Shown: piece by piece, positions 28,293 through 28,397 of the stretch
How the letters are laid out: the number at the start of each line of letters is the position of its first letter
Position numbering within the stretch: position 1 is the stretch's first letter
Assembly: GCF_000146505.1 (NCBI RefSeq)
Contig: NC_017448.1
Span: forward strand, 480,001 to 512,000
Direction: 5' to 3'
Length of the DNA: 32,000 nucleotides
Source: Fibrobacter succinogenes subsp. succinogenes S85
Lineage (GTDB): Bacteria > Fibrobacterota > Fibrobacteria > Fibrobacterales > Fibrobacteraceae
The notes under the pieces: generated by a model
Seen by the model: the letters and a program-made list of their open reading frames with translations, nothing else
Told to the model about the DNA's origin: nothing
The model's database searches: none
Translations under genes and position numbers: made by a program

Positions 28293-28397
28293 TAGACGAA
28301 AGAATGCCGCTTTGCGGCTATAGACTAAAGACGAAAGAATGATTTAGAATTTCCTTTTTGAAAAATCTTTCGTCTATCGTCTTTCGTCTATCGTCTA
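28293..28397 (+). repeat. heptamer-palindromic element, copy E (complete, in the groES-groEL spacer)
   Basis: TAGACGAAAGAA-TGCCGCTTTGCGGC-TA-TAGACTAAAGACGAAAGAA, a 26-nt spacer, then TCTTTCGTCTATCGTCTTTCGTCTATCGTCTA. It starts on the nucleotide after the groES TAA. Confidence 0.9.

What the first reader, a model, noticed from the sequence alone, without database searches (positions are those of the whole stretch)
28293..28397. Archetype of a dispersed heptamer-palindromic element family, sitting between groES and groEL
At least five copies with the same modular order occur in this window: 6866-6949(-), 10088-10202(-), 14632-14722(-), 26572-26614(+, half) and 28293-28397(+). The order is: box 1 TAGACGA(A/T)AGAA; a 5-7 bp GC hairpin of variable sequence (GCCGC/GCGGC, GGAGC/GCTCC, CGCTCGC/GCGAGC); TA; box 2 (C/T)AGACGAAAGACGAAAGA; a 5-35 nt spacer; then three to five tandem heptamers TCT(T/C/A)TCG ending GTCTA. 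That last arm is the inverted complement of boxes 1 and 2. The variable hairpin keeps its pairing through compensatory changes. Here the element fills the groES-groEL spacer and would fold into a large three-way structure within the bicistronic mRNA, 30 nt before the groEL start. It could therefore affect differential stability or translation of the two cistrons. It is neither a CRISPR array nor a classical REP or IS terminal repeat. I do not recognise it as a described family.
Basis: seen in the sequence. Interest (0 to 1): 0.8.

Follow-up and report, generated by a model that had tools for sequence, protein, structure and literature searches.

The report
Fibrobacter stop-codon-hugging heptamer/hairpin repeat family
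The sequence between groES and groEL is one copy of a previously unreported, abundant small repeat of the rumen bacterium Fibrobacter, which sits directly after stop codons or in frame inside genes and is most likely REP/MITE-like selfish DNA rather than a dedicated groESL regulator.

Summary
All five copies lie at the stated coordinates in Fibrobacter succinogenes S85, far above chance. The groES-groEL copy folds into the predicted three-way structure (-39.9 kcal/mol, z -4.8).

The interpretation needs correcting in five ways.
- The dispersed unit is only the about 50-nt left module: TTAGACGARAGAAC, a GC hairpin, then TACAGACGARAGACGARAGA. I found more than 150 copies in Fibrobacter genomes and rumen metagenomes. 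Only about 18-40% have the inverted heptamer arm.
- It is not simply intergenic. 56 of 120 copies start 0-6 nt after a co-oriented gene's stop codon, or supply its TAG. Many others are read through in frame (RsgA, ExbB signal peptide, TPR protein, CobA/HemD, RlmL, TilS).
- The groESL site is not conserved. Close relatives carry a different heptamer family at the same spot, or nothing.
- Three signals single out the strand antisense to the gene: a GTAG tag 5' of the hairpin, GNA triloops, and G.T rather than A.C mismatches. The first two resemble GTAG-tagged REPs and stable DNA minihairpins.
- Rfam and the searched literature list nothing for Fibrobacter.

Best reading: a new REP/BIME/RPE-like repeat built on heptanucleotide tracts. 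How it spreads is unknown; no transposase was found. A regulatory effect on groESL is possible but unsupported.

The parts
28293..28304 (+). Box 1 (TAGACGAAAGAA) of the groES-groEL copy. It begins immediately after the groES stop TAA (28290-28292) and adds a second stop, TAG.
28306..28318 (+). GC hairpin GCCGC-TTT-GCGGC. On the minus strand it reads GTAG-proximal GCCGC-AAA-GCGGC followed by the T-rich ATTCTTTCGT.
28321..28339 (+). Box 2 (TAGACTAAAGACGAAAGAA), a purine-rich heptamer tract of about 2.5 units.
28340..28365 (+). Copy-specific spacer that forms its own small stem. It is unrelated between copies.
28366..28397 (+). Right arm: TCTTTCG/TCTATCG x4.6 ending GTCTA. It is the inverted complement of boxes 1 and 2 and ends 30 nt before the groEL ATG (28428).
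26572..26617 (+). Left module alone, starting right after the TAA of the AsmA/DUF748 gene (24097-26571). It is followed at 26621-26649 by that gene's intrinsic terminator. There is no right arm.
14632..14722 (-). Full element inserted in frame in rsgA (13761-14993). It encodes about 30 aa in the beta-hairpin loop of the OB domain.
10088..10202 (-). Full element directly after ATG-T of the ExbB/MotA-like gene (8637-10205). It is translated as residues 2 to about 40, ahead of the signal-peptide core.
6866..6949 (-). Full element between the TonB stop (6951-6953) and the TPR protein body. It lies inside the annotated TPR ORF (5918-6961, TTG start with an AAGGAG Shine-Dalgarno sequence).
28011..28292 (+). 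groES (Cpn10), 93 aa.
28428..30062 (+). groEL (Cpn60), 544 aa.

Best explanation
The groES-groEL insert is one copy of a genus-wide, non-autonomous repeat family of Fibrobacter. It behaves like REP/BIME and Rickettsia-palindromic-element DNA.

**The unit.** The core is a module of about 50 nt: a TTAGACGAR-AGAAC heptamer stub, a 4-6 bp GC hairpin, then a TACAGACGAR-AGACGAR-AGA tract. In a minority of loci an inverted (TCTYTCG)n tract lies on the far side of the local spacer or terminator, giving the large palindrome seen here.

**Shown.**
- The module is dispersed across Fibrobacter.
- It abuts, or supplies, the stop codon of a co-oriented gene about 40 times more often than chance.
- It also sits in frame in permissive loops and signal-peptide n-regions.
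- Orthologous sites are empty, filled, or filled by a different heptamer family in close relatives.
- Stems covary.
- The GTAG tag, the GNA triloop and the G.T-tolerant pairing all lie on the strand antisense to the gene.

**Inferred.**
- Copies spread and are homogenised at the DNA level, through a folded single strand or by gene conversion among copies.
- Heptamer tracts grow and shrink by replication slippage.
- Selection then removes copies that harm genes. That leaves copies just past stop codons, in the orientation that puts no hairpin-plus-T-tract terminator into the mRNA.
- In the groESL mRNA the element is therefore mainly a tolerated passenger. It would still fold into a stable three-way structure and may incidentally alter processing or stability.
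For: **Family size and spread.**
- 17 hits against 0.23 expected in the window.
- 26 more full modules, all in Fibrobacter or Fibrobacteraceae genomes.
- 24 extra copies per 927 kb beyond the ones that triggered retrieval.

**Gene-end rule.**
- The stop is the module's own TAG in 23 of 120, and a stop lies 4-9 nt upstream of it in 33 of 120.
- Random intergenic positions give 1.3%.
- Only 6 of 120 have an antisense ORF ending at the module.

**In-frame copies.**
- RsgA is invariant except at the insert, which spans 16-54 aa. Outgroups have a 4-8 aa loop there.
- ExbB and the TPR protein are annotated with the insert, and shorter alleles exist.
- CobA/HemD, RlmL and an ABC ATPase carry sense copies. 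TilS and HemD carry antisense copies.

**Turnover at the same site.**
- The groESL spacer is 135 nt in S85. It is 119 nt with TGGTCAA/TGACCAA arms in a 98%-identical GroES strain, 174 nt with a third family, and 41 and 38 nt when empty.
- The UWB13 rsgA allele keeps the element ends, but its interior is replaced by CTTCCTA heptamers.
- The L132 TPR allele has mismatched left and right arms.

**Mosaic, BIME-like neighbours.** A second hairpin repeat and other heptamer families are interleaved with the modules.

**Strand signals.**
- 53 of 73 triloops are T-N-C on the sense strand, which is GNA on the antisense strand. Only 2 are GNA on the sense strand. The closing pair is C-G in 81 of 87.
- The antisense strand folds better in 10 of 12 copies and in 15 of 21.
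- CTACAG, which reads CTGTAG on the antisense strand, flanks the stem in 24 of 28 copies.

**Precedents.** GTAG REPs supply TAG stops and occur inside ORFs (PMC3733652). RPEs fuse in frame with ORFs (PMC10969869).
Against: - No transposase candidate was found. A RAYT-like motif search was negative in about 1.9 Mb of element-bearing loci, and no recurrent transposase-like ORF cluster appeared.
- No target-site duplication is visible, and no near-identical copy pairs point to recent bursts.
- Spacers and hairpins differ between copies, so whole-element copy-paste is not what spreads.
- Element orientation follows genes, not the replichore: GC skew is monotonic across the window. That is unlike IS200/IS605-type single-strand transposition, unless selection filters orientation afterwards.
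- About 23% of copies cannot form the hairpin.
- The very tight stop-codon junction and the 10:1 orientation bias could instead reflect a function at the RNA level.
Confidence: 0.55

Rival explanations
1. The module is a functional mRNA element in the 3' UTR or between cistrons. It would act as a 3'-exonuclease barrier, an RNase III or RNase E processing site, a brake on ribosomes next to the stop codon, or a purine-rich translation enhancer for the next gene. Between groES and groEL it would set the ratio of the two cistrons.
For: - The module is co-oriented with genes and abuts their stop codons.
- It lies upstream of the native terminator in at least 6 of 31 copies, so it is transcribed.
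- 11 of 120 modules end within -1 to +3 nt of the next ATG.
- The folds are stable: z -4.8 in S85, and -2.7 and -2.3 for the two other families at the same site.
- Three independent families fill the same groESL spacer.
- REPs are reported as local 3'-UTR regulators (bioRxiv 10.64898/2026.03.23.713779, listed).
Against: - The structural asymmetries favour the antisense strand. The sense RNA carries A.C mismatches and UNC triloops.
- 80% of modules lack the pairing arm.
- The groESL site is empty in two lineages.
- Copies occur inside ORFs in both orientations.
- When a terminator sits in the spacer, the right arm would not be transcribed.
Confidence: 0.2
2. The module is a one-way, antisense-facing terminator or insulator. 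Read on the strand opposite to the gene, it is a GC hairpin with a GNA loop followed by the T-rich GTTCTTTCGTCT. It would stop transcription that enters the gene's 3' end from downstream, while sense transcription reads through.
For: - The scan flags 28318..28306(-) as terminator-like.
- This reading explains the strict orientation relative to gene ends.
- It also explains the antisense-strand bias in loops and wobble pairs.
Against: - The stems are only 4-6 bp and the T tract is interrupted. Only the A-variant of box 1 reaches 5 T in 8; copy B was not flagged.
- Native Fibrobacter terminators in the same loci have 6-9 bp stems and runs of T5-8.
- Copies within operons and within ORFs have no obvious need for such a device.
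- The GCTCGC subfamily lacks a stem.
Confidence: 0.1
3. There is no mobility at all. The tracts are ordinary long simple-sequence repeats, the heptanucleotide class known to be over-represented in bacteria. They would arise in place by polymerase slippage and fold-back template switching around hairpins, with phase variation where they lie in coding leaders.
For: - Heptamer SSRs are the commonest long SSR class, and polymerase slippage has been proposed as the cause (Mrazek 2007, as summarised in PMC4679880).
- GGGAATC repeats cluster at or over stop codons, with about 4 units and inverted pairs (PMC4692102).
- More than 30 heptamer families occur in the Fibrobacter loci.
- Arms bracket native terminators.
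- A TCTCTCG x4 tract lies in two signal-peptide coding regions.
Against: - A composite 50-nt module with fixed order (stub, hairpin, CTACAG, tract) recurs at more than 150 unrelated loci. Local slippage cannot produce that.
- Hairpin subfamilies are shared across loci and species.
Confidence: 0.08
4. The heptamer tracts are binding sites for a sequence-specific DNA- or RNA-binding protein, and so define a regulon or a nucleoid-organising set, as proposed for TAACTGA repeats.
For: - The arms are more conserved than the hairpin and spacer at orthologous sites (S85 against L024).
- They are repeated heptamers in fixed phase.
- The precedent hypothesis is in PMC4679880.
Against: - The host genes share no functional theme: a chaperonin, RsgA, TonB/ExbB, AsmA, CobA, TilS and polA upstream.
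- Different heptamer families substitute for each other at one site.
- No candidate protein was identified.
Confidence: 0.05

Closest known systems
GTAG-tagged REP / BIME elements (Enterobacteria, Pseudomonas and others; Di Nocera et al. 2013, PMC3733652)
   Same: - Both are short GC hairpins with a conserved GTAG immediately 5' of the stem on one strand.
- Both are high-copy and lie mostly just downstream of ORFs.
- Both can donate the TAG stop codon and sometimes sit inside ORFs.
- Both show stem subfamilies with complementary changes.
- Both are embedded in mosaics with other repeats.
   Different: - The stems are shorter (4-6 bp against the usual 6-9).
- The hairpin is flanked on both sides by direct AGACGAR heptamer tracts, which carry most of the sequence conservation.
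- There are no REP doublets (REPINs).
- No RAYT gene was found.
- The TAG stop comes from the heptamer stub, not from the GTAG tag.
- The phylum Fibrobacterota is not among the reported hosts.
Rickettsia palindromic elements (RPE) and other intragenic MITEs (PMC10969869)
   Same: Both are palindromic repeats of about 100 nt that insert in frame into unrelated housekeeping genes, are translated, and are tolerated in surface loops.
   Different: - RPE copies share a conserved full-length sequence and peptide. Here only the arms are conserved, and the peptide depends on the frame and the heptamer variant.
- Most Fibrobacter copies are extragenic, at stop codons.
Heptanucleotide long SSRs: cyanobacterial STRR, GGGAATC/GGGGAYT repeats (PMC4692102) and TAACTGA repeats (PMC4679880)
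   Same: - All are tandem 7-nt units of about 4 copies.
- All are intergenic, very close to or overlapping stop or start codons.
- Some occur as inverted pairs.
- Many unit families occur per genome, and their function is unknown.
   Different: - The Fibrobacter tracts are part of a fixed composite module with a tagged hairpin.
- They are not G-quadruplex-forming.
- They occur in frame within ORFs.
- Different families occupy the same orthologous site.
Integron attC sites
   Same: - Both are imperfect palindromes of variable interior placed right after an ORF.
- The folded bottom strand is the relevant one in both.
- The ends GTTAGAC...GTCTAAC fit the degenerate GTTRRRY / RYYYAAC words.
   Different: - The polarity of the two words is reversed relative to attC.
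- The host genes are core housekeeping genes in conserved synteny, not cassettes.
- No integrase or attI was seen. I treat the resemblance as coincidental.

Membership tests
REP (GTAG superfamily) / REPIN | Imperfect palindrome of 20-40 nt forming a stem-loop | tested here: inconclusive
   The hairpin is only 11-17 nt with a 4-6 bp stem. 87 of 120 copies have a perfect stem of at least 4 bp, and 28 of 120 cannot pair. This is shorter than most REPs; 5-bp stems are reported for Thauera GTAG-1.
REP (GTAG superfamily) / REPIN | Conserved GTAG tetranucleotide at the 5' foot of the stem | tested here: met
   The sense strand reads CTACAG after the stem, which is CTGTAG before the stem on the antisense strand, in 24 of 28 unbiased copies.
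REP (GTAG superfamily) / REPIN | Cognate RAYT (Y1/HUH transposase) gene flanked by REPs | tested here: not met
   No ORF with an HUH plus YxxxNP-type motif was found in about 1.9 Mb of element-bearing loci, and no recurrent transposase-like cluster appeared. The whole genome was not searched, and the motif search is crude.
REP (GTAG superfamily) / REPIN | Inverted doublets of near-identical REPs (REPIN) as the mobile unit | tested here: not met
   Facing modules occur (L009), but their hairpins differ. Most copies are singletons.
MITE | Terminal inverted repeats | tested here: inconclusive
   The TTAGACGA...TCGTCTAA ends are present in full copies. Only 21 of 120 modules have the second arm.
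MITE | Target-site duplication and a conserved internal sequence shared by copies | tested here: not met
   No duplication appears at filled-versus-empty comparisons. Spacers are unrelated between copies.
Rickettsia palindromic elements | In-frame insertion into unrelated ORFs with a conserved encoded peptide | tested here: inconclusive
   In-frame insertion is shown. The peptide is not conserved: LDDRT..., FRRKNG... and RRENG... arise in different frames.
Heptanucleotide LSSR / STRR | Tandem 7-nt units, about 3 or more copies, enriched in intergenic DNA near ORF ends | tested here: met
   TRF finds period 7 at 4.4-4.6 copies. Period 7 is the commonest class in the Fibrobacter loci, 97 of 263 arrays, although the loci were selected with a heptamer pattern. 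Proximity to stop codons is shown.
CRISPR array | Regularly spaced direct repeats of 24-48 nt with unique spacers | tested here: not met
   No such array was found.
Any Rfam family | Covariance-model match at or above the gathering score | tested here: not met
   Only Fibro-purF matches in the window. The permissive scan of 28200-28480 gives only chance miRNA and PrfA hits far below their gathering scores.
Integron attC | RYYYAAC ... GTTRRRY polarity, an adjacent cassette ORF and an IntI/attI platform | tested here: not met
   The polarity is reversed, as the sequence shows directly. The flanking genes are syntenic housekeeping genes.

The most novel reading that the evidence does not exclude
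Heptamer-tract and hairpin modules are placed by an as yet unknown mechanism that is directed at gene ends and aware of transcription orientation. It needs no linked transposase. Different heptamer families (AGACGAA, TGGTCAA, GTAGGAA, TGAGGCA and others) compete for, and replace each other at, the exact nucleotide after a stop codon or within an older element. The same process would then underlie the long-unexplained excess of heptanucleotide repeats next to stop and start codons in Cyanobacteria (STRR), Xanthomonas, Beggiatoaceae and Bacteroidota.
Probability: 0.15. Interest if true: 0.85.

Novelty: new variant of a known kind. Interest (0 to 1): 0.55.

Why it matters
**For genome annotation.** It would add a phylum (Fibrobacterota) and a new architecture (a tagged minihairpin embedded in heptamer tracts) to the REP/MITE world. 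Gene callers currently translate the element as part of RsgA, ExbB, TPR and other proteins. Hypervariable protein segments and signal-peptide extensions in Fibrobacter are therefore repeat-derived.

**For an open question.** The system is compact and comparative, with filled, empty and replaced alleles at identical sites in close strains. That makes it a useful place to ask why heptanucleotide repeats cluster at stop and start codons, a pattern noted since 1990 and 2007 without a mechanism.

**For groESL.** The practical message is caution. The spacer structure is strain-specific and so is not a conserved regulator.

Tried and rejected
- **Rfam.** Gathering and permissive scans found nothing relevant.
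- **Literature.** I searched for Fibrobacter with heptanucleotide, REP and palindromic terms, and checked the RepRanger and GTAG/CGTC surveys. None mentions Fibrobacter.
- **RAYT / IS200-like transposase.** Motif scans of all fetched loci gave 0 hits. This is a crude test.
- **Recurrent neighbouring genes.** All-against-all clustering of 2018 ORFs gave a largest cluster of a Fibrobacter paralogous lipoprotein family, with no transposase.
- **Alistipes locus L074.** It has inverted arrays 2.3 kb apart and was examined as a possible composite element. The arrays lie within or next to one 865-aa ORF, so it was not pursued.
- **Integron attC analogy.** Rejected on the polarity of the core words and on gene content.
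- **Replication-strand explanation of orientation.** Rejected. GC skew is monotonic across the window, while copies sit on both strands and follow their genes.
- **'Always co-oriented with the host ORF'.** Rejected for intragenic copies after antisense in-frame copies were found in HemD and TilS. It holds only for gene-end copies.
- **Automated search for inverted partner arrays from TRF output.** It under-called short left arms and was not used.
- **Phage origin.** Only one viral contig carries a module.

Full report
**Observation.**
The window is Fibrobacter succinogenes S85. Its RsgA, ExbB-like and TPR proteins match S85 records exactly, and Rfam finds the Fibro-purF motif. The 17-mer AGACGAAAGACGAAAGA with up to 3 mismatches occurs 17 times against 0.23 expected, only inside these loci. 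TRF calls period-7 arrays of 4.4-4.6 units in each right arm.

In the groESL copy the groES stop TAA (28290-28292) is followed directly by these parts:
- box 1 at 28293-28304;
- the hairpin GCCGC-TTT-GCGGC at 28306-18;
- box 2 at 28321-39;
- a private spacer;
- the arm TCTTTCG/TCTATCG x4.6 at 28366-97.

The groEL ATG is at 28428. RNA folding gives the predicted three-way junction at -39.9 kcal/mol, z -4.8. The opposite strand folds equally well (-41 kcal/mol, z -4.8).

Three of the five copies lie inside annotated ORFs.
- The 14632-14722 copy is in frame in rsgA.
- The 10088-10202 copy starts right after ATG-T of an ExbB/MotA-like gene, which has a GGAGG Shine-Dalgarno sequence and a TAATG overlap with the upstream gene.
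- The 6866-6949 copy lies between the TonB stop and the body of a TPR protein. That protein's TTG start, preceded by AAGGAG, is upstream of the element.

NCBI annotates both proteins with the element translated, as WP_012819887.1 (522 aa) and WP_012819883.1 (347 aa). The TCTCTCG tract reads SLVSRLS and runs into the hydrophobic core of the signal peptide. The 26572 copy is a left module alone, placed between the AsmA-like stop and that gene's terminator.

**Family census.**
An HMM of the left module found 26 further full-length modules there, all in Fibrobacter or Fibrobacteraceae assemblies.
It found one viral contig.
- Beyond the copies that triggered retrieval, there are 24 extra modules per 927 kb. 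Extrapolated crudely, that implies on the order of 100 per genome.
- Only 21 of 120 modules (12 of 31 in the genome set) have an inverted heptamer arm within 150-220 nt.

The dispersed unit is therefore the left module. The large palindrome in the groESL spacer is a minority form. Spacers are unrelated between copies, and in at least 6 of 31 they contain the gene's own intrinsic terminator.

**Position rule.**
Of 120 contexts, a long co-oriented ORF ends at the module's own TAG in 23. It ends 4-9 nt upstream in 33; the mode is a stop codon followed directly by TTTAGAC. Random intergenic positions in the same kind of loci satisfy a similar stop-proximity criterion (stop 0-7 nt upstream) 1.3% of the time. 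Only 6 of 120 have a long ORF on the other strand ending in or next to the module. Eleven modules end within -1 to +3 nt of the ATG of the next long ORF, so they fill a stop-to-start gap exactly. GC skew is monotonic across the window while copies lie on both strands with their genes, so orientation tracks transcription and not replication.

**Intragenic copies.**
- Thirteen RsgA orthologues at 93-98% identity are essentially invariant except for a 16-54 aa, indel-rich segment exactly at the element.
- The nearest outgroups have a 4-8 aa loop between the same OB-fold strands.
- Other sense in-frame copies interrupt an RlmL-like methyltransferase, CobA/HemD (twice) and an ABC ATPase. Pfam domains lie on both sides of the insert or are stretched across it.
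- Antisense in-frame copies exist in HemD and TilS, so orientation is not constrained inside ORFs.
- ExbB alleles range from MFRRK-TLLPLL... (498 aa) to 544 aa. The short allele still carries TTTAGACGAAAGA at the DNA level.

**Turnover at orthologous sites.**

The groES-groEL spacer:

| Strain or locus | GroES identity to S85 | Spacer | Content |
|---|---|---|---|
| S85 | - | 135 nt | AGACGAA element |
| L121-L123 | 98% | 119 nt | TAGTCAA/TGGTCAA tract, GCGGC-AAA-GCCGC hairpin, spacer, TGACCAA x4 |
| L127, L128 | 86% | 174 nt | a third family (TGAGGCA units, several GC hairpins) |
| L124-L126 | 92% | 41 nt | empty |
| L129-L131 | 80% | 38 nt | empty |

All three filled alleles begin with TAG directly after the stop codon. 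In rsgA of strain UWB13 the element ends (TTAAACGAGA...CGTCTAC) persist, but the interior is a GCCCGC hairpin plus CTTCCTA heptamers. In one TPR allele the left arm is TTTCAGG/TTTTAGG while the right arm is still TCTTTCG x4. This argues for repeated insertion or replacement at hot spots and nesting inside older elements. It argues against a conserved function at groESL.

**Structure and strand.**
The hairpin covaries: 81% of cells are paired against 57% in shuffles, 32 cells change on both sides against 13.6, and controls with the 3' partner column shifted by 1-3 positions pair much less (21-51% of cells). In the 120-copy set:
- 87 copies have perfect stems of at least 4 bp, with at least 14 different stem sequences;
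- the closing pair is C-G in 81 of 87;
- 73 have triloops, of which 53 are T-N-C on the sense strand, meaning C-GNA-G on the antisense strand, against 2 the other way.

From my own knowledge, d(C-GNA-G) triloops are the exceptionally stable DNA minihairpins described by Hirao and colleagues.

Where arms exist, the left arm prefers A (31 against 11 G) and the right arm prefers C (52 against 15 T). The sense strand therefore carries A.C mismatches where the antisense strand has G.T or G.U. The antisense strand folds better in 10 of 12 and in 15 of 21 copies. On that same strand the stem is preceded by GTAG in 24 of 28 copies. It is followed by the T-rich GTTCTTTCGTCT, which the simple scan flags as terminator-like for the groESL copy. 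About 23% of copies form a GCTCGC..GCTCGC subfamily that cannot pair.

**Interpretation.**
The data fit a REP/BIME/RPE-like dispersed repeat best (confidence 0.55).
- *Shown:* dispersal, the gene-end rule, in-frame tolerance, site turnover, covariation and the antisense-strand bias.
- *Inferred:* propagation or homogenisation at the DNA level, heptamer tract growth by slippage, and a selective filter. That filter would keep copies just past stop codons, in the orientation that does not place a hairpin plus T tract in the mRNA.

The main weaknesses are these. No transposase was found, using crude motif and clustering tests. No target duplication is visible. Orientation follows genes rather than the replication fork.

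Rivals, in order of credence:
- a real mRNA element, acting as a stabiliser, processing site or coupling device (0.2);
- an antisense-facing terminator or insulator (0.1);
- pure in-place simple-sequence-repeat dynamics (0.08);
- a protein-binding regulon (0.05).

**Comparison with known systems.**
- GTAG REPs share the tag, the downstream-of-ORF habit, donation of TAG stops and intragenic copies (PMC3733652). They lack the flanking heptamer tracts and normally come with RAYT genes.
- RPEs share in-frame insertion (PMC10969869).
- Heptanucleotide repeats are known to be the commonest long SSR class. They are known to cluster at or over stop codons with about 4 units and inverted pairs (PMC4692102). 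TAACTGA repeats occur immediately upstream of start codons (PMC4679880). Their mechanism is unknown.
- AGACGAR arrays starting with TAG at a stop codon also occur in Rikenellaceae and other Bacteroidales. Heptamer inverted pairs occur in several other phyla in my loci, so the heptamer component is not specific to Fibrobacter. The composite module appears to be: every full-length hit in the genome collection was Fibrobacter or Fibrobacteraceae, and the source organisms of the metagenome contigs were not checked.

**Verdict.**
This is a new variant of a known kind, and its interest is moderate (0.55).

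Noticed in passing
window 27892-27907: A sigma-54-type promoter, TGGCAC-N5-TTGC, lies about 100 nt upstream of the groES start. It looks conserved in relatives, judging from mis-called N-terminal extensions of GroES that read through it. 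A groESL operon dependent on RpoN would be unusual.
   Followed up: partly
window 18026-18145 and 15285-15320: A second heptamer family (TAGGAAG/TAGACGG) starts 1 nt after the purF stop. It brackets the purF terminator (AAAAGGCTCCAAATGGAGCCTTTT) with an inverted arm that runs up to the stop of the convergent ORF. A solo array of the same family lies at 15285-15320.
   Followed up: partly
window 20230-20350: Two more heptamer families lie after ORF 19104-20210: AGAACTTAGA boxes with TCTAAGC/TCTAAGT x4.6, then CTAGTAA/CTACGAA x4.6. The layout is the same, with different units.
   Followed up: partly
L132:7260-7330, and many loci: Another hairpin repeat, GTCATCCTGAGCG...CGAAGGATC, is interleaved with the modules. 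It is translated inside ORFs as VILSEVEGS, or as SSRAQDD in antisense, for example in ExbB alleles P0252 and P0255, the L132 TPR protein and TilS in L211.
   Followed up: no
window 6868-6898 and 10091-10121: TCTCTCG x4.4 tracts lie inside the signal-peptide coding regions of the TPR and ExbB-like genes of one TonB operon. A change of one unit would shift the frame, as with the CTCTT leader repeats of Neisseria opa genes. Phase variation is therefore possible.
   Followed up: no
L018, L028, L036, L060, L070, L074, L085, L113, L118: Rikenellaceae/Alistipes and Paludibacteraceae genomes carry AGACGAR arrays that begin with TAG at a gene's stop codon. Arrays of many other heptamers lie beside them (AATGCAG, CTCACTA, CCCCAGT-like). 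Inverted heptamer pairs also occur in Anaerolineales, Omnitrophota and Acidobacteriota loci.
   Followed up: partly
window 13761-14993; P0273, P0279: Fibrobacter RsgA has an N-terminal extension of about 70 aa rich in K and R. Unrelated taxa carry their own long insertions in the same OB-fold loop that hosts the element here.
   Followed up: no
L136:187-226(-): One IMG/VR viral contig (14.9 kb) carries a full left module. A 293-codon ORF ends at the module's TAG.
   Followed up: no
window 16562-16636: A Fibro-purF RNA motif (Rfam RF02974, 99 bits) lies at the 5' end of the purF ORF call.
   Followed up: no
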